From NCBI RefSeq assembly GCF_003334335.1, contig NZ_QOWQ01000011.1: a stretch of 64,000 nt of DNA. The stretch is one strand, 5' to 3'. The stretch is from Escherichia coli. GTDB taxonomy: Bacteria; Pseudomonadota; Gammaproteobacteria; Enterobacterales; Enterobacteriaceae. The notes beneath the pieces are model-generated. The model was given only the letters and a program-made list of their open reading frames with translations. It did not search any database and was not told where the DNA came from. How positions within the stretch are numbered: position 1 is the first letter of the stretch; the number at the start of each line of letters is the position of its first letter. Made by a program: the position numbers and the translations under genes. Positions 11,696 to 52,188 of this stretch are shown piece by piece.

Positions 11696-12811
11696 ATGCA
11701 TCGACAATCCTTTTTCCTTGTGCCCCTTATTTGTCTTTCTTCCGCTCTCTGGGCGGCTCCTGCAACGGTAAATGTCGAAGTACTGCAAGACAAACTCGAC
11801 CATCCCTGGGCACTGGCCTTTTTACCCGATAATCACGGTATGTTAATCACTCTGCGCGGCGGCGAGTTGCGTCACTGGCAAGCAGGAAAAGGATTATCTG
11901 CGCCGCTTTCCGGAGTTCCGGACGTTTGGGCGCACGGGCAGGGCGGCCTGCTGGACGTGGTTTTAGCGCCTGATTTTGCTCAGTCTCGCCGCATCTGGTT
12001 AAGTTATTCCGAAGTTGGCGATGATGGCAAAGCCGGAACTGCTGTGGGTTATGGCCGCTTAAGTGATGATCTCTCAAAAGTGACCGACTTCCGCACCGTC
12101 TTTCGCCAGATGCCAAAACTGTCTACCGGCAACCATTTTGGCGGGCGGCTGGTATTCGACGGTAAAGGTTATCTTTTTATTGCTCTGGGCGAAAACAATC
12201 AGCGCCCGACGGCGCAGGATCTGGATAAATTACAGGGCAAACTGGTGCGTCTGACCGACCAGGGCGAAATCCCGGATGATAATCCTTTTATAAAGGAATC
12301 CGGTGCGCGCGCCGAGATCTGGTCTTATGGCATTCGTAATCCGCAAGGAATGGCGATGAATCCGTGGAGTAATGCACTGTGGCTGAATGAACATGGCCCG
12401 CGCGGTGGTGATGAAATTAATATCCCGCAAAAAGGCAAAAACTACGGCTGGCCGCTGGCAACCTGGGGAATCAACTATTCAGGCTTTAAGATACCGGAAG
12501 CGAAAGGGGAGATCGTCGCCGGGACCGAGCAACCTGTTTTTTACTGGAAAGATTCGCCCGCTGTGAGCGGCATGGCCTTCTATAACAGCGATAAATTCCC
12601 CCAGTGGCAGCAAAAATTATTTATTGGCGCGCTGAAAGATAAAGATGTCATTGTGATGAGCGTCAACGGCGACAAAGTGACAGAAGATGGCCGTATTTTA
12701 ACGGACAGAGGGCAGCGAATTCGTGATGTTCGCACTGGACCCGACGGTTATTTATACGTTCTCACCGACGAGTCCAGTGGGGAATTACTTAAAGTTAGCC
12801 CACGCAATTAG
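11696..12811 (+). CDS. yliI: Soluble aldose sugar dehydrogenase (PQQ-dependent, periplasmic)
   Basis: 371-aa ORF with N-terminal signal peptide; recognised as K-12 YliI. Confidence 0.92.
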
Positions 12812-13434
12812 CTAACGGGAATCATCACCACTTTGCGCACTGCGGGGCGTTCAGTGAGTTGCTGATACCAGCGTTGCAGATTTGGACGCGGTGTCCAGGT
12901 CAGGCCAACGTTAAACAAATTGTAGATGAACGGTGCGATAGCGATATCGCCCACACCAAACTCGTCGCCAGAGAACCATTTTACTTTTGCCAGTTCCGCA
13001 TCGAGCAGGGCAAACAGGGCGTCGCACTCTTTGCAACTGGCATCAATGGCGGCCTGATCGCGCTCTTCCGGTGGTGTTCTGACTAATCCCATCAGGATCC
13101 CGCGATGAGCATTACTGAGCGTCTGGTTTGCCCAGTCCATCCATTTTTCCGCTTCCGCACGACGTGCCGGTGAGTCGATCCACAGGCGTTTTTGCCCGTA
13201 CTGTGCCGCCAGATAGCGGACAATGGCGTTTGATTCCCAAAGAATGAGATCACTTTCGTCGTCACGCAACAACGGCACCAGCCCGTTAGGGTTCATCGCC
13301 AGAAAATCAGCATCGTGATTTATCCCAAACTCACGGCCCGCGAGAATTTGCTCATAAGGTAGTTCCAGTTCTTCGAGCGTCAGCAATACTTTTTTTACGT
13401 TAGTTGAATTATTCCGACCCCACAGCGTAATCAT
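12808..13434 (-). CDS. gstB: Glutathione S-transferase
   Basis: 208-aa product from ATG 13434 ([15 protein letters not shown]...); stop codon overlaps the yliI stop in a shared TTAG. Confidence 0.9.
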
Positions 13435-37546: not shown

Positions 37547-37870
37547 ATGCAATTTTCTACAACCCCAACTCTGGAAGGCCAGACCATCGTTGAATATTGC
37601 GGTGTGGTGACCGGCGAAGCGATTTTAGGTGCCAATATTTTCCGTGATTTCTTTGCCGGTATCCGCGATATCGTTGGCGGACGTTCCGGTGCGTATGAAA
37701 AAGAACTGCGTAAAGCACGGGAGATCGCCTTTGAGGAATTAGGCTCCCAGGCGCGGGCGCTGGGGGCCGATGCCGTCGTCGGTATTGATATCGACTACGA
37801 AACGGTCGGGCAAAACGGCAGTATGCTGATGGTTAGCGTCAGCGGTACGGCGGTGAAAACGCGTCGATGA
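37547..37870 (+). CDS. ybjQ: UPF0145 family protein
   Basis: 107-aa ORF ([21 protein letters not shown]...). Confidence 0.88.
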
Positions 37871-38697
37871 GAAGATTCTTCTGGCTGGTCGCTGCCGCTC
37901 TGTTATTGGCAGGGTGTGCAGGCGAAAAAGGCATTGTCGAGAAAGAGGGATATCAGCTTGATACCCGACGCCAGGCGCAGGCGGCGTATCCGCGCATTAA
38001 AGTGCTGGTGATCCACTACACCGCAGATGATTTTGATAGCTCGCTGGCGACACTGACCGATAAGCAGGTCAGCTCGCATTATCTGGTCCCTGCGGTACCA
38101 CCGCGATACAACGGTAAACCGCGCATCTGGCAACTGGTGCCGGAACAAGAACTGGCCTGGCATGCGGGGATTAGCGCCTGGCGCGGGGCAACGCGCCTTA
38201 ACGACACCTCTATTGGCATTGAGCTGGAAAACCGTGGCTGGCAAAAATCGGCCGGAGTGAAATATTTTGCCCCGTTTGAACCGGCACAGATTCAGGCGCT
38301 TATTCCACTGGCGAAAGATATTATTGCCCGTTATCACATCAAGCCGGAAAACGTAGTGGCACATGCGGATATCGCACCGCAGCGCAAAGACGATCCGGGG
38401 CCATTATTTCCCTGGCAGCAACTGGCGCAGCAGGGGATTGGTGCCTGGCCGGATGCGCAGCGGGTTAACTTTTACCTTGCCGGGCGCGCGCCGCACACAC
38501 CGGTAGATACCGCGTCATTGCTGGAGCTTTTGGCGCGCTACGGTTATGACGTTAAACCTGATATGACACCGCGCGAGCAGCGGCGCGTGATTATGGCATT
38601 CCAGATGCATTTCCGCCCGACGTTATATAACGGCGAAGCGGATGCAGAAACTCAGGCGATTGCCGAAGCATTGCTGGAGAAATACGGGCAGGATTAG
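37867..38697 (+). CDS. amiD: N-acetylmuramoyl-L-alanine amidase lipoprotein
   Basis: 276-aa ORF, lipobox LLAGC; ATGA overlap with the ybjQ stop. Confidence 0.92.
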
Positions 38698-39707
38698 CGC
38701 GGCAGTTTTCCGTGGTCGCGTAGCCAGGCGGCAGTTTTCTCGATACCTTCATCCAGGGTGATGACCGGCTGATAACCTAACTCTTCCTGCGCACGCGTAA
38801 TATCTAGCGTAAAGTCAAAATTCAACTTGGAGACGCCGTAGTGGGTCAGCGGCGGCTCTTTTGCTGACTTGCGGCCTAAACGCTCCATGCTGCGGGCGAT
38901 CATATCCAGCATCGGGTAGGGGACGGAACGAATACGACAGTCAATATTCAACTCGTCGATCAGCTTCTGCACGATGCTGCGCAGTGTGCGATGCTCGCCG
39001 TTGGTGATGTTGTACACACGCCCGGAAGGTAGCTTATCGCAGGCTTCCTGGCTTGCCAGCCACATTGCGTGCACGGCATTTTCATAGTAGGTCATATCGA
39101 CCAGCGCACTGCCGCCATGCGGTAACAGAATACTGCCGTAGTGGTGCATCATATGCGCCAGACGGGGAATAAAGACTTTATCGTGCGGTCCGAACAGACT
39201 TTGTGGGCGCAGAATAGTAAAGCGCGTTTGTGGATTCGCCTGCGAAAGCATATTGATCACTTCTTCGCTGGCTGCTTTGCTGCGGGCAAACTCGTTGGCG
39301 AAGCGGTGAGGGCGAAAATCTTCTTTAATATCGCGATGGTGGTGATAATCGAAGTACAGGGAGGGGGAAGAGATATGAATAAAGTTACGCACACCCCAGG
39401 CGACAGCCCATTCACCCAGGCGGCGAGTGGCGCGAACGTTAGCCAGATCGAAAGCCTGTTGTGTCCCCCAGGGTGAGGTAAAGCTGGAGCAGTGCCACAG
39501 CGTATCAATGCCCGCGAGCATCACTTTAGCTTGTGATGAAACCAGCTCGGTCAGATCCGCCGGAACAAACTCTGCGCCCATTTTTTCCAGCAATTTGCCC
39601 ATTGCCTCGTTGCGACCGGTCGCTCGCACGCTGATGCCTTTCTGGCATAAAAACTCTACCGCGTTTCGACCTAAGCCGCTGGTGGCGCCGGTAACCAGTA
39701 CCTTCAT
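38694..39707 (-). CDS. ybjS: NAD(P)-dependent epimerase/dehydratase-family protein
   Basis: 337-aa product from ATG 39707 ([19 protein letters not shown]...), Rossmann GxxGxxG; stop overlaps the amiD stop in a TTAG. Confidence 0.88.
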
Positions 39708-49426: not shown

Positions 49427-51085
49427 ATGATTCTTGAGCGCGTTGAAATTGTGGGTTTTCGCGGTATCAACCGTTTGTCGTTGATGCTGGAACAAAACAA
49501 CGTCCTGATTGGGGAGAACGCGTGGGGTAAATCCAGCTTGCTGGACGCCTTAACTCTGCTGCTATCGCCAGAATCAGATCTCTACCATTTTGAGCGCGAC
49601 GATTTCTGGTTCCCGCCGGGAGATATCAACGGGCGAGAACATCATCTGCATATTATTTTGACCTTCCGCGAATCGCTGCCAGGCCGACATCGGGTTCGCC
49701 GTTATCGGCCGCTGGAAGCGTGCTGGACGCCATGCACCGATGGCTATCACCGTATTTTTTATCGTCTGGAAGGGGAGAGTGCGGAAGACGGCAGCGTGAT
49801 GACACTGCGCAGTTTTCTCGATAAAGACGGACATCCGATTGATGTCGAGGATATTAACGATCAGGCACGCCATCTGGTGCGTTTAATGCCGGTGCTGCGC
49901 TTGCGTGATGCCCGTTTTATGCGCCGTATTCGTAACGGCACGGTGCCAAATGTCCCTAATGTGGAAGTCACCGCGCGCCAGCTCGATTTCCTCGCCCGTG
50001 AGTTATCCTCACATCCGCAAAATCTCTCTGATGGGCAGATTCGTCAGGGACTTTCCGCAATGGTACAGCTGCTTGAGCATTATTTCTCTGAGCAGGGGGC
50101 CGGACAGGCGCGATATCGTTTAATGCGGCGGCGAGCCAGCAATGAGCAACGAAGCTGGCGCTATCTGGATATCATCAACCGGATGATTGACCGACCTGGT
50201 GGGCGCTCGTATCGGGTTATTTTGCTCGGCCTATTTGCTACTTTGTTGCAGGCAAAAGGCACATTGCGACTGGATAAAGACGCCCGTCCATTGTTGCTGA
50301 TCGAAGATCCAGAAACCCGTTTACACCCCATTATGCTTTCAGTTGCCTGGCATCTGTTGAATCTTCTGCCATTGCAGCGCATTGCCACCACCAACTCGGG
50401 TGAGTTGCTTTCGTTAACGCCGGTAGAGCATGTTTGCCGACTGGTACGTGAGTCCTCGCGCGTTGCCGCCTGGCGTCTGGGGCCGAGTGGCTTGAGTACC
50501 GAAGATAGCCGACGCATATCCTTTCACATTCGTTTTAACCGTCCGTCATCGCTGTTTGCACGCTGCTGGTTGCTGGTGGAAGGGGAAACGGAAACCTGGG
50601 TTATCAATGAACTGGCGCGTCAGTGCGGACATCATTTTGATGCCGAAGGGATCAAGGTCATTGAGTTTGCCCAGTCCGGGCTAAAGCCACTGGTTAAATT
50701 TGCCCGCCGAATGGGGATTGAATGGCATGTACTGGTCGATGGCGATGAAGCAGGGAAGAAATATGCCGCTACGGTACGCAGCCTGTTGAATAACGATCGG
50801 GAAGCCGAACGAGAACATTTAACGGCGTTACCGGCGCTGGATATGGAACATTTTATGTATCGCCAGGGATTTTCCGATGTGTTCCACCGCATGGCGCAAA
50901 TCCCGGAAAATGTACCGATGAATCTACGCAAAATTATCTCGAAAGCGATCCATCGCTCTTCCAAACCCGATCTTGCCATTGAAGTGGCAATGGAGGCAGG
51001 ACGTCGTGGTGTGGACTCCGTACCGACGCTGCTGAAAAAAATGTTCTCACGCGTGCTGTGGCTGGCGCGCGGTCGCGCGGATTAA
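49427..51085 (+). CDS. ybjD: OLD-family protein: N-terminal ABC-like ATPase fused to C-terminal TOPRIM nuclease domain
   Basis: 552-aa ORF; Walker A GENAWGKSS (aa 29-37, nt 49511..49537), Walker-B-like LLLIEDPE, TOPRIM glutamate in LLVEGETE (nt 50576..50593) and DxD in VLVDGDEAG (nt 50738..50746). Confidence 0.9.
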   Translation: MILERVEIVGFRGINRLSLMLEQNNVLIGENAWGKSSLLDALTLLLSPESDLYHFERDDFWFPPGDINGREHHLHIILTFRESLPGRHRVRRYRPLEACWTPCTDGYHRIFYRLEGESAEDGSVMTLRSFLDKDGHPIDVEDINDQARHLVRLMPVLRLRDARFMRRIRNGTVPNVPNVEVTARQLDFLARELSSHPQNLSDGQIRQGLSAMVQLLEHYFSEQGAGQARYRLMRRRASNEQRSWRYLDIINRMIDRPGGRSYRVILLGLFATLLQAKGTLRLDKDARPLLLIEDPETRLHPIMLSVAWHLLNLLPLQRIATTNSGELLSLTPVEHVCRLVRESSRVAAWRLGPSGLSTEDSRRISFHIRFNRPSSLFARCWLLVEGETETWVINELARQCGHHFDAEGIKVIEFAQSGLKPLVKFARRMGIEWHVLVDGDEAGKKYAATVRSLLNNDREAEREHLTALPALDMEHFMYRQGFSDVFHRMAQIPENVPMNLRKIISKAIHRSSKPDLAIEVAMEAGRRGVDSVPTLLKKMFSRVLWLARGRAD

Positions 51086-52074
51086 CCGCGAAACATCGTG
51101 GCCATTTGTGGCTGAATAGCGTCGAGCATCTCATAGCGCCGACGGTATTCAGCCCGTTTTTTACTGGCGATTTCGGCAATCTCTTTTCGTGCTATCTGTG
51201 CTGGAAGGCGGTAATGGCGTTCAGCATCACATACGCCGCCAACCGATTCCCAGAAAGCGTTGTAATCAGCGTGGATCTTGCCTTCTTTATCGCGATAACG
51301 CAGGCTGCGGTAAATATGCGTTTCATTGCTGACGGCAATAATCTGCTCTACCTGCAAACGTTGGGCAAACAGACAGGCCGCTTCCATCACGAGGCGTTTG
51401 GGAAATAGCCCGTGGCAGGCTTTCGTCGCATTCTGGATTTCCTGATGTGGAATTTCCCATTTTGCGCCTTGCAGTCCGCCAATAAACATCGTTCTTTTCC
51501 CCTGATATTCACACAGGGTAAACGTGATCTCTGCCAGAGGAATACCTTCGCTGTTGCGGAACAGGATTGTGCTGTCACCTTCTTTATCCATTGAGATCAT
51601 CATGGTCAGCTCAAGCGTGAACTGCTCGCCGTTTTTGCCTTCCAGCTTCGCCAGTTGCAGCCCGGGGGTATTCAAATATAAGCTGAATTCTTCCGCCGAC
51701 ATACATTCGCGGAGTAACGCATAATGGTAACGTAACGCCTCCAGCAATTGCTTACGGCTAAGATTCGCCGCAAGGTAAGGGCGATGCAGACGCACAGGCA
51801 GTCGCGGCTGGCGCGTTAACAATACATTGAGATTAGGCCAGTGGGAAAGTTCGTTCATCCACTCAACGCTTAAACGCGGCATAATCAACGAGCGCAGCAA
51901 AAATTTCTGGCGAAAACTACGGCGATGCCAGAATTTACCCGGCCGACACTGTCCACGTGCCAGACTAAGAAAAAGTGACAGGCTGCTGAGAGATTCAGAT
52001 GGCGTAAAGGTCCGTTCAGTTAGCTGCGACATATTCATGAAATCAATGGTTATACATGGCGTCGATTTCACCAT
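51082..52074 (-). CDS. ybjX: VirK-like protein (DUF535)
   Basis: 330-aa ORF from ATG 52074; stop overlaps the ybjD stop in a shared TTAA; an internal Met (MSQLTERT...) is an alternative start. Confidence 0.8.
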   Translation of the reverse strand: MVKSTPCITIDFMNMSQLTERTFTPSESLSSLSLFLSLARGQCRPGKFWHRRSFRQKFLLRSLIMPRLSVEWMNELSHWPNLNVLLTRQPRLPVRLHRPYLAANLSRKQLLEALRYHYALLRECMSAEEFSLYLNTPGLQLAKLEGKNGEQFTLELTMMISMDKEGDSTILFRNSEGIPLAEITFTLCEYQGKRTMFIGGLQGAKWEIPHQEIQNATKACHGLFPKRLVMEAACLFAQRLQVEQIIAVSNETHIYRSLRYRDKEGKIHADYNAFWESVGGVCDAERHYRLPAQIARKEIAEIASKKRAEYRRRYEMLDAIQPQMATMFRG

Positions 52075-52188
52075 TGCGTATCTTAACCAAACATCAATAG
52101 TGTGATTACTAACGTAAATTTTAGGGTTTTGTTGATATTTCGTTGAAGTTAATGACCCGGATTGGCATATGGAGTATTCAGAAAATTT

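What the first reader, a model, noticed from the sequence alone, without database searches (positions are those of the whole stretch)
51082..51085. Three convergent gene pairs end in overlapping stop codons (TTAR tetramers)
yliI/gstB (12808..12811, TTAG), amiD/ybjS (38694..38697, TTAG) and ybjD/ybjX (51082..51085, TTAA) each share stop-codon nucleotides across strands, leaving no intergenic space for a terminator. Transcription of each gene must therefore run into the partner's coding region, which may give antisense interference or coupled regulation. ybjD/ybjX is the most intriguing pair because both partners are functionally obscure.
Basis: seen in the sequence. Interest (0 to 1): 0.2.

Follow-up and report, generated by a model that had tools for sequence, protein, structure and literature searches.

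The report
Ordinary stop-on-stop convergent gene overlaps
Three tail-to-tail gene pairs in this E. coli K-12 segment really do share a four-base TTAA/TTAG stop-codon overlap, but this is the commonest, long-described kind of convergent gene overlap, and published maps already show each pair's transcripts running into the partner gene until the Rho factor stops them.

Summary
yliI/gstB (12808-12811, TTAG), amiD/ybjS (38694-38697, TTAG) and ybjD/ybjX (51082-51085, TTAA) overlap by exactly four bases, both in the ORF list and in the MG1655 RefSeq annotation.

This is the known YTAR stop-on-stop class, the modal convergent overlap in prokaryotes. E. coli has 58 convergent overlaps, so three in 64 kb is only mildly unusual (P about 0.01-0.05 per window).

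None of the three junctions has a hairpin terminator. All five short-spacer convergent junctions in the same window do.

Published bicyclomycin data place Rho termination regions 375-882 nt inside the partner gene for four of the six read-through directions. A 2025 "excludon" catalogue lists all three pairs.

The same read-through is reported for spacer-bearing pairs here and for 75% of E. coli convergent operons. Mutual repression has not been shown for any of these pairs.

New here: the ybjD/ybjX overlap is ancient. It is -4 in 61 of 62 Enterobacteriaceae species that have the pair, and all four YTAR variants occur. The other two junctions drift among genera (-4, 0, +4, +18, +39).

Both ybjD (an OLD-family nuclease) and ybjX (a PhoP-regulated VirK-family protein) are no longer obscure.

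Verdict: real, ordinary, already known.

The parts
12808..12811 (.). TTAG stop-on-stop tetramer shared by yliI (TAG, +) and gstB (TAA, -)
11696..12811 (+). yliI CDS (aldose sugar dehydrogenase)
12808..13434 (-). gstB CDS (glutathione S-transferase), RefSeq start
12360..12807 (-). gstB read-through RNA antisense to yliI, up to the published Rho termination region at NC_000913.3 879406(-) (Rho score 3.76, p 1.4e-6; resolution about 800 nt)
   Evidence: Adams et al. 2021 Supp. file 2
38694..38697 (.). TTAG stop-on-stop tetramer shared by amiD (TAG, +) and ybjS (TAA, -)
37867..38697 (+). amiD CDS; its start also overlaps the ybjQ stop by 4 nt (37867-37870)
38694..39707 (-). ybjS CDS (putative NAD-dependent epimerase), RefSeq start
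38043..38693 (-). ybjS read-through RNA antisense to amiD, up to the Rho termination region at 905089(-) (score 3.90, p 2.6e-10)
38698..39072 (+). amiD read-through RNA antisense to ybjS, up to the Rho termination region at 906118(+) (score 4.27, p 4.9e-6)
51082..51085 (.). TTAA stop-on-stop tetramer shared by ybjD (TAA, +) and ybjX (TAA, -); present as TTAA/TTAG/CTAA/CTAG in 61 of 62 Enterobacteriaceae species that have the pair
49427..51085 (+). ybjD CDS, OLD-family ATPase-Toprim protein (proposed name oldB)
51082..52074 (-). ybjX CDS as annotated (VirK/YbjX family). Experiments in Shigella place the TSS 18 bp downstream of this ATG and the real starts at Met13/Met15 (window 52038/52032)
50200..51081 (-). 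ybjX read-through RNA antisense to the 3' half of ybjD, up to the strong Rho termination region at 917246(-) (reads 299 upstream/18 downstream without BCM, 568/545 with BCM; score 15.9, p 6.9e-53)
52083..52099 (-). PhoP box TATTGA-N5-GGTTAA of the ybjX promoter, the regulated source of the antisense read-through into ybjD
   Evidence: PMC12562796

Best explanation
These are three ordinary members of the YTAR stop-on-stop class of convergent gene overlap.

Origin and stability (inferred). The complement of a TAA or TAG stop is TTA or CTA. One base further on, this reads TA+R, which is again a stop. A gene squeezed against a convergent neighbour, by loss of spacer DNA or by loss of its own stop, therefore most often ends exactly 4 nt into the neighbour. 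No sense codon is shared. The four variants TTAA, TTAG, CTAA and CTAG interconvert by synonymous transitions. The state costs the proteins nothing and can persist.

Transcription (shown by published data for four of the six directions, inferred for the other two). With no spacer there is no intrinsic terminator. RNA polymerase reads past each stop into the partner gene and makes an untranslated, mostly C-over-G antisense RNA. Rho terminates this RNA a few hundred nucleotides in (375-882 nt).

Consequence. The resulting sense/antisense overlap is the same kind seen at most E. coli convergent operons. Any regulatory effect on the partner is possible but undemonstrated.
For: - Geometry and annotation.
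- The class and its four tetramers are described, with 58 convergent overlaps in E. coli and 4 bp as the modal overlap length: Lillo & Krakauer 2007.
- Code-based expectation: 21 of 171 simulated run-ons end at exactly 4 nt, by far the modal outcome.
- All four YTAR variants occur at the ybjD/ybjX junction across 61 species (TTAA 32, TTAG 21, CTAA 5, CTAG 3). The ybjD last codon is GAT or GAC, both Asp.
- No structure at the three junctions (z -0.95 to +1.30). All five short-spacer convergent junctions in the window carry 8-14 bp GC hairpins (z -1.5 to -5.1).
- No curated Term-seq 3' end lies near the junctions.
- Bicyclomycin-sensitive Rho termination regions lie inside the partner CDS for gstB, ybjS, amiD and ybjX read-through.
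- The minus-strand read-through RNAs have C/G of 1.17-1.23.
- Relatives show the junctions moving among minimal spacings: -4, 0, +4, +18, and +39 with a terminator.
- Read-through at convergent operons is the rule: 276 of 370.
Against: - The near-perfect conservation of -4 at ybjD/ybjX is stronger than simple drift would suggest. It holds in 61 of 62 species, even though YbjX is only about 52% identical and its C-terminal tail varies from 10 to 16 residues. This leaves room for selection on the architecture.
- No Rho region or 3' end is reported for yliI or ybjD read-through, so those two directions are inferred only.
- The Rho positions have about 800-nt resolution. The antisense reads could in part come from internal antisense promoters rather than from the upstream gene.
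- C/G enrichment is modest. It is absent for the amiD read-through (0.94), which nevertheless has a Rho region.
Confidence: 0.8

Rival explanations
1. Selected excludon. The overlap is kept because read-through antisense transcription, through transcriptional interference and/or RNase III cleavage of the duplex, makes the two partners mutually exclusive. The main candidate is PhoP-induced ybjX silencing the potentially toxic OLD nuclease gene ybjD.
For: - All three pairs are in the ExcludonFinder core excludome, and as a class excludon pairs are less often co-expressed in single cells and more syntenic.
- A strong Rho-limited antisense RNA covers about 880 nt of ybjD.
- ybjX is PhoPQ-activated.
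- YbjD is cytotoxic when over-expressed.
- The -4 architecture is conserved in 61 of 62 species despite about 50% YbjX divergence.
Against: - No pair-specific expression anticorrelation or reporter data exist.
- A pair whose CDSs overlap is called an excludon almost automatically by a coverage-based tool once both genes are expressed, so the listing is weak evidence (inference from the method).
- ybjD persists without ybjX in 18 of 80 species.
- amiD/ybjS has a canonical bidirectional terminator in Cronobacter, and yliI/gstB spacing varies.
- Read-through with Rho termination is equally seen at non-overlapping pairs.
- dsRNA validation failed for convergent excludons in general.
Confidence: 0.13
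2. The junction is a collision-type or hairpin bidirectional terminator of the kind described by Ju et al. 2019 and Wang et al. 2022. A stem-loop spanning the shared stops pauses both polymerases and defines the 3' ends at the gene boundary.
For: - K-12 has a perfect 5-bp inverted repeat, CGCGG-ATTAA-CCGCG, centred on the ybjD/ybjX tetramer.
- A 6-bp repeat GTTAGC...GCTAAC lies at yliI/gstB.
- Bidirectional terminators between convergent genes are reported as widespread.
Against: - Folding energies of all three junctions on both strands are within shuffle expectation.
- The ybjD/ybjX stem is not conserved even in other Escherichia. One example is GGGCAGATTAACCGCG in E. coli E69 (L004); the other Escherichia species also differ (L003, L006-L008).
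- No U-tract is present.
- No curated Term-seq 3' ends lie at the junctions.
- Rho-dependent signal lies hundreds of nucleotides further in.
Confidence: 0.05
3. Annotation artefact: one gene of a pair is not real or ends elsewhere, so there is no true overlap.
For: The annotated start codons are uncertain. The ORF list and RefSeq differ for gstB and ybjS, and the ybjX start is probably 12-14 codons too long.
Against: - Stop codons are unambiguous, and all six ORFs are long and conserved.
- YbjS and GstB have hundreds of full-length homologues ending at the same residue.
- YbjD and YbjX orthologues end at the tetramer in 61 species.
- yliI, gstB and amiD are annotated with specific enzyme functions; ybjD and ybjX have been studied experimentally.
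Confidence: 0.01

Closest known systems
4-nt convergent stop-stop overlaps (tetramers CTAA, TTAA, CTAG, TTAG) described in surveys of prokaryotic overlapping genes (Lillo & Krakauer 2007, PMC2174442; PairWise Neighbours database, PMC2716372)
   Same: The geometry, the tetramers and the organism are identical. That survey already counted 58 convergent overlaps in E. coli, noted that any terminator must lie inside the partner CDS, and found predicted intrinsic terminators for only 20% of such genes.
   Different: Nothing essential. This report adds the per-pair evolutionary history: ybjD/ybjX is ancient and the other two are labile.
Convergent excludons (ExcludonFinder catalogue of E. coli MG1655, Sanmartin et al. 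NAR 2025, PMC12288877)
   Same: yliI-gstB, amiD-ybjS and ybjD-ybjX are all listed by name among the 165 convergent excludons.
   Different: The defining functional property, mutually exclusive expression, has not been shown for these pairs. Here the transcript overlap follows trivially from the CDS overlap.
Rho-dependent termination of untranslated or antisense read-through RNA (Adams et al. eLife 2021, PMC7815308, which cites earlier bicyclomycin-based termination maps)
   Same: Four of the six read-through directions have bicyclomycin-sensitive termination regions antisense to the partner gene. Antisense is the largest class (51.5%) of Rho regions in that data set.
   Different: None in kind. 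For yliI and ybjD read-through no region is reported, possibly because expression in LB is low.
Bidirectional terminators and RNAP-collision termination between convergent genes (Ju et al. 2019, as described in Wang et al. bioRxiv 10.1101/2022.10.23.513370)
   Same: A convergent gene pair that needs termination in both directions within a very short space.
   Different: Those elements need a stem-loop between the genes that positions the collisions. No significant or conserved stem-loop exists at these three junctions, whereas the five spacer-bearing junctions in the window do have one.

Membership tests
YTAR 4-nt convergent stop-stop overlap | Two real protein-coding genes on opposite strands, tail to tail | tested here: met
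   RefSeq annotation. Full-length homologues of YbjS and GstB. YbjD and YbjX orthologues in 80 and 62 species. PADLOC GajA/Old hits for YbjD.
YTAR 4-nt convergent stop-stop overlap | Overlap of exactly 4 nt, with the tetramer one of TTAA, TTAG, CTAA or CTAG | tested here: met
   TTAG, TTAG and TTAA at 12808, 38694 and 51082.
YTAR 4-nt convergent stop-stop overlap | No sense codon shared beyond the third positions of the two last codons | tested here: met
   Last codons are AAT/AGC, GAT/CGC and GAT/GGT. Across species the variants change only synonymous positions, GAT/GAC.
Convergent excludon | Transcripts of the two neighbouring genes overlap | tested here: met
   Looked up in published data: ExcludonFinder Table 1 and Rho termination regions 375-882 nt inside the partner CDS. 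No raw reads were analysed here.
Convergent excludon | Expression of one gene represses the other (mutually exclusive expression) | not testable with these tools
   No pair-specific expression data were found; only a class-level single-cell statistic.
Convergent excludon | The overlap duplex is processed by RNase III or detectable as dsRNA | not testable with these tools
   The authors could not validate convergent excludons with p19 capture.
Bidirectional intrinsic or collision-type terminator | Stable stem-loop located between or at the ends of the two genes | tested here: not met
   z-scores are -0.95 to +1.30 at the three junctions, against -1.5 to -5.1 at five control junctions. The K-12 5-bp stem is not conserved in Escherichia.
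Bidirectional intrinsic or collision-type terminator | Defined overlapping 3' ends at the gene boundary | tested here: inconclusive
   No curated Term-seq 3' ends lie near 879857, 905743 or 918131, but expression is low, so power is limited. SEnd-seq tables are not held.
Rho-dependent terminator | Read-through increases when Rho is inhibited by bicyclomycin | tested here: met
   Rho scores are 3.76, 3.90, 4.27 and 15.9 with p from 1e-6 to 7e-53 for four directions. None is listed for yliI or ybjD read-through.
Rho-dependent terminator | Untranslated, C-rich and G-poor RNA upstream of the termination zone | tested here: inconclusive
   C/G is 1.17-1.23 overall, with 100-nt windows up to 1.6-1.9, on the three minus-strand read-through RNAs. 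It is 0.94-1.11 on the plus-strand ones.

The most novel reading that the evidence does not exclude
The ybjD/ybjX stop-on-stop junction may be a selected regulatory device. It is kept in 61 of 62 Enterobacteriaceae species even though YbjX itself has diverged to about 50% identity. When PhoPQ induces ybjX (low Mg2+, antimicrobial peptides, intracellular life), its terminator-less read-through would lay a roughly 0.9-kb Rho-limited antisense RNA over the 3' half of ybjD, including the whole Toprim-encoding part. This would shut down the cytotoxic OLD-family anti-phage nuclease and so link envelope-stress signalling to phage defence.
Probability: 0.1. Interest if true: 0.45.

Novelty: already known. 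Interest (0 to 1): 0.12.

Why it matters
It matters little beyond bookkeeping. The finding shows a textbook consequence of the genetic code, that stop codons are near-complementary to each other, and of compact bacterial genomes. It also confirms that genes without room for a hairpin terminator rely on Rho acting inside the neighbour.

The one point worth keeping is the ybjD/ybjX pair. A PhoP-regulated gene reads antisense into a potentially toxic anti-phage OLD nuclease gene through a junction that has stayed fixed across the family. If that antisense RNA controls ybjD, it would be a simple natural example of a convergent excludon tying stress signalling to defence. Nothing yet shows that it does.

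Tried and rejected
- Hairpin at the ybjD/ybjX junction (CGCGG-ATTAA-CCGCG) as a bidirectional terminator. Rejected: folding is not better than shuffles and the stem is not conserved even within Escherichia.
- Consensus intrinsic-terminator scans within 600 nt of each junction. The numbers found equal shuffle expectation. Only weak 5-bp candidates appear at 51141-51158(+) and 38715-38732(+), inside the partner CDS, and no Term-seq 3' end supports them.
- Pair-level transcript-end data in other resources. The ExcludonFinder, Dar & Sorek 2018 and Conway 2014 supplements are not held. The SMRT-Cappable-seq supplements have no entry for these genes. Ju et al. 2019 is not held.
- Significance of the clustering of three overlaps in one window. 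It is marginal (P 0.009-0.047), and 0.6-3.4 such windows are expected per genome.
- Whether overlapping pairs show more Rho-terminated read-through than spacer-bearing pairs. They do not: 4/6 against 6/16, p = 0.35.
- Annotation artefact. Rejected, because the stops are unambiguous and the orthologues end at the same place.
- NCBIfam gave no informative family for YbjX and only N-terminal P-loop matches below cutoff for YbjD.
- An exact genome-wide count of -4 convergent junctions in MG1655 could not be made.
Full report
**Identity of the window and check of the observation**

A 2.9-kb query around the third site matches 5425 of 5426 complete E. coli genomes. The MG1655 record NC_000913.3 aligns to the window with an offset of 867046 from gsiB onward. 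One 1-nt difference lies further upstream.

The mechanical ORF list has plus- and minus-strand ORFs ending 4 nt into each other at 12808-12811, 38694-38697 and 51082-51085. RefSeq annotates the same overlaps:
- yliI 878742-879857 / gstB 879854-880480
- amiD 904913-905743 / ybjS 905740-906753
- ybjD 916473-918131 / ybjX 918128-919120

In each pair the minus gene ends in TAA, and the plus gene's TAG or TAA begins one base later. The only shared coding information is the third base of each last sense codon.

**Is it more than chance?**

The window holds 11 convergent junctions. Three are -4 and eight have spacers of 19-343 nt.

Lillo & Krakauer (2007) counted 58 convergent overlaps in E. coli. 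They named exactly these four possible tetramers (CTAA, TTAA, CTAG, TTAG) and reported 4 bp as the modal overlap length. With at most 58 events per 4.64 Mb, three in 64 kb has P = 0.047. If only 30-40 of them are 4-nt overlaps, P is 0.009-0.019. One to three such windows are therefore expected somewhere in the genome.

The tetramer itself follows from the genetic code. I let a hypothetical convergent ORF read the reverse complement of each of the 57 CDS ends in the window, in all three frames. Of the 171 cases, 21 stop at exactly 4 nt of overlap, and no other length occurs more than 4 times. So -4 is simply the most probable end point when two convergent genes are pushed together.

**Structure at the junctions**

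I folded 120 nt centred on each junction, on both strands.

| Junctions | z-score range | Structure |
|---|---|---|
| Three overlap junctions | -0.95 to +1.30 | Indistinguishable from shuffles |
| Five short-spacer convergent junctions (dgcI/rimO, dacC/deoR, mdfA/ybjH, ybjM/grxA, macB/cspD) | -1.5 to -5.1 | Each has an 8-14 bp GC-rich hairpin in the spacer |

Consensus terminator scans within 600 nt of the overlaps find no more sites than shuffles do.

The neat 5-bp inverted repeat CGCGG-ATTAA-CCGCG around the ybjD/ybjX tetramer in K-12 is lost in other Escherichia, so it is a coincidence.

**Where the transcripts end**

Adams et al. (eLife 2021) mapped Rho termination regions by DirectRNA-seq with and without bicyclomycin. 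Their Supplementary file 2 lists four regions relevant here.

| Position (strand) | Antisense to | Rho score | p | Distance past the stop |
|---|---|---|---|---|
| 879406 (-) | yliI | 3.76 | 1.4e-6 | 448 nt past gstB |
| 905089 (-) | amiD | 3.90 | 2.6e-10 | 651 nt past ybjS |
| 906118 (+) | ybjS | 4.27 | 4.9e-6 | 375 nt past amiD |
| 917246 (-) | ybjD | 15.9 | 6.9e-53 | 882 nt past ybjX |

For 917246(-), the read counts are 299 upstream and 18 downstream without drug, and 568 and 545 with drug. Nothing is listed for yliI or ybjD read-through. No curated Term-seq 3' end lies at the junctions.

The three minus-strand read-through RNAs are C-over-G (1.17-1.23), with windows up to 1.6-1.9. The plus-strand ones are not (0.94-1.11).

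So four of the six directions are documented to run several hundred nucleotides into the partner and to be stopped by Rho. The other two are inferred. The positional resolution is about 800 nt, and I cannot exclude a contribution from internal antisense promoters.

**Is this special to the overlapping pairs?**

No. The same table lists Rho regions inside the partners of spacer-and-hairpin pairs in this window: 882572(+) in deoR, 881569(-) in dacC, 884860(-) in mdfA and 920915(-) in macB. The comparison is 4 of 6 directions against 6 of 16, p = 0.35. Conway et al. (2014) found 3' transcript overlap, averaging 286 nt, at 276 of 370 convergent operons.

ExcludonFinder (NAR 2025) lists yliI-gstB, amiD-ybjS and ybjD-ybjX, and also mdfA-ybjH, among the 165 convergent excludons of MG1655. 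For pairs whose CDSs overlap, a coverage-based call is close to automatic. The authors could not validate convergent excludons by dsRNA capture. Mutual repression is shown only as a class-level single-cell tendency.

**Evolutionary history**

*ybjD/ybjX.* One scan of species-representative genomes with YbjD returned 80 Enterobacteriaceae loci.
- In 62 of them a YbjX-like gene is the convergent neighbour. In 61 of these the junction is -4. Buttiauxella is the exception, at +12.
- All four tetramers occur: TTAA 32, TTAG 21, CTAA 5, CTAG 3.
- The ybjD last codon is GAT or GAC, so the variants interconvert by synonymous transitions.
- This holds although YbjX is a striking divergence outlier. Its median identity to E. 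coli is 52%, between YbjD at 85% and MacA at 86%.
- The YbjX tail after a conserved LD motif varies from 10 to 16 residues.
- Losing the ybjX stop would add 149 codons in E. coli, against 9-24 codons for the other five genes. The YTA triplet is therefore under strong purifying selection.
- In 18 species ybjX is absent while ybjD and macA remain.

*amiD/ybjS.* The junction is -4 in Klebsiella and Enterobacter and 0 in Serratia. In Cronobacter it is +39, with a perfect 8-bp hairpin flanked by A and T runs. amiD is absent from Yersinia.

*yliI/gstB.* The junction is -4 in Salmonella, +4 in E. fergusonii, 0 in Cronobacter and Enterobacter, and +18 in Superficieibacter.

These two junctions wander among minimal spacings, which argues against a required overlap.

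**Function of the partners**

YbjD matches PADLOC GajA (6.8e-80) and Old profiles. A 2026 report shows that it is an OLD-family protein that gives anti-phage phenotypes and cytotoxicity on induction, and proposes the name oldB.

YbjX is a cytoplasmic VirK/YbjX-family protein activated by PhoPQ and affecting outer-membrane permeability. Its PhoP box is at window 52083-52099. The pair is no longer functionally obscure.

**Explanation and verdict**

The best-supported account (confidence 0.8) is neutral compaction to the code-favoured stop-on-stop state, followed by Rho-dependent termination of the untranslated read-through RNA inside the partner gene.

The rivals are:
- A selected excludon, most plausibly ybjX silencing ybjD (0.13). 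It is kept alive by the exceptional conservation and by the strong antisense signal.
- A hairpin or collision bidirectional terminator (0.05). Folding and conservation contradict it.
- An annotation artefact (0.01).

The phenomenon, its tetramers, the terminator problem it poses, and the membership of these very pairs in a catalogue of transcriptional overlaps are all published. The finding is real, ordinary and already known. The only modestly new item is the family-wide fixity of the ybjD/ybjX junction.

Noticed in passing
window 51082-52074 and loci L009-L082: YbjX is a divergence outlier between two conserved neighbours. In 55 non-Escherichia species its median identity to E. coli is 52%, against 85% for YbjD and 86% for MacA. 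Citrobacter species carry alleles of 54-74% identity. The gene is absent in 18 of 80 species that keep ybjD and macA. This suggests fast evolution or repeated allele replacement of a PhoP-regulated envelope gene.
   Followed up: partly
L068, L072, L073, L074, L081 (Kluyvera and one unnamed Enterobacteriaceae isolate): Two tandem ybjX-like genes lie downstream of ybjD. The proximal copy keeps the -4 stop-on-stop junction.
   Followed up: partly
window 52030-52099: The RefSeq ybjX start (ATG at 52074) lies upstream of the transcription start mapped in Shigella, which is 18 bp downstream of that ATG with a -10 of TGAAAT. Mutagenesis there supports starts at Met13/Met15, i.e. window 52038 and 52032 (MVKSTPCITIDFMNMSQ...). 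The PhoP box is at 52083-52099(-). The annotated N-terminus is probably 12-14 codons too long.
   Followed up: partly
window 50632-51081, minus strand: There is a 149-codon stop-free stretch antisense to ybjD, in the same frame as ybjX. It contains the listed ORF 50632..50979(-). A single mutation of the ybjX stop would extend YbjX by 149 residues.
   Followed up: partly
window 49427-51085 (hit H1, strain NCM3722): In the K-12 relative NCM3722 the ybjD region is annotated as two DUF2813 fragments with an IS1A transposase between them, so ybjD is disrupted by IS1 in that laboratory strain.
   Followed up: no
window 37867-37870; also potH/potI and macA/macB junctions: amiD is overlapped at both ends. 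Its start overlaps the ybjQ stop by 4 nt and its stop overlaps ybjS. Two other co-directional -4 overlaps are in the window (potH/potI, macA/macB), plus -1, -14 and -17 overlaps.
   Followed up: no
window 14523, 15526, 17814, 53869 (NC_000913.3 881569-, 882572+, 884860-, 920915-): Published Rho termination regions also lie inside the partner genes of convergent pairs that do have spacer hairpins: dacC/deoR in both directions, ybjH into mdfA, and cspD into macB. Hairpins between convergent genes do not prevent antisense read-through here.
   Followed up: partly
L085:2518-2556 (Cronobacter dublinensis): A 39-nt spacer between ybjS and amiD holds a perfect 8-bp hairpin, AACGCCGC/GCGGCGTT, flanked by an A run and a T run. 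This is a textbook bidirectional intrinsic terminator, at a position where E. coli, Klebsiella and Enterobacter have a -4 overlap.
   Followed up: partly
L088:2124-2811 (Salmonella enterica): yliI is called as three short fragments of 57, 52 and 51 residues; the first two have GSDH-domain hits and the third has none. This suggests a pseudogene in this Salmonella, yet its 3' end still overlaps gstB by 4 nt.
   Followed up: no
L041 and L017: A contig labelled Chryseobacterium sp. 18061 carries an Enterobacteriaceae ybjD-ybjX-macA locus (86% YbjD identity). A MAG labelled Raoultella carries a Citrobacter-like locus (91%). Both are probably contamination or mis-binning in the public records.
   Followed up: no
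window about 1-2365: The window differs from NC_000913.3 by a 1-nt indel somewhere upstream of gsiB. The gsiA coordinates are shifted by one relative to the rest, so the window is not byte-identical to the MG1655 reference there.
   Followed up: no
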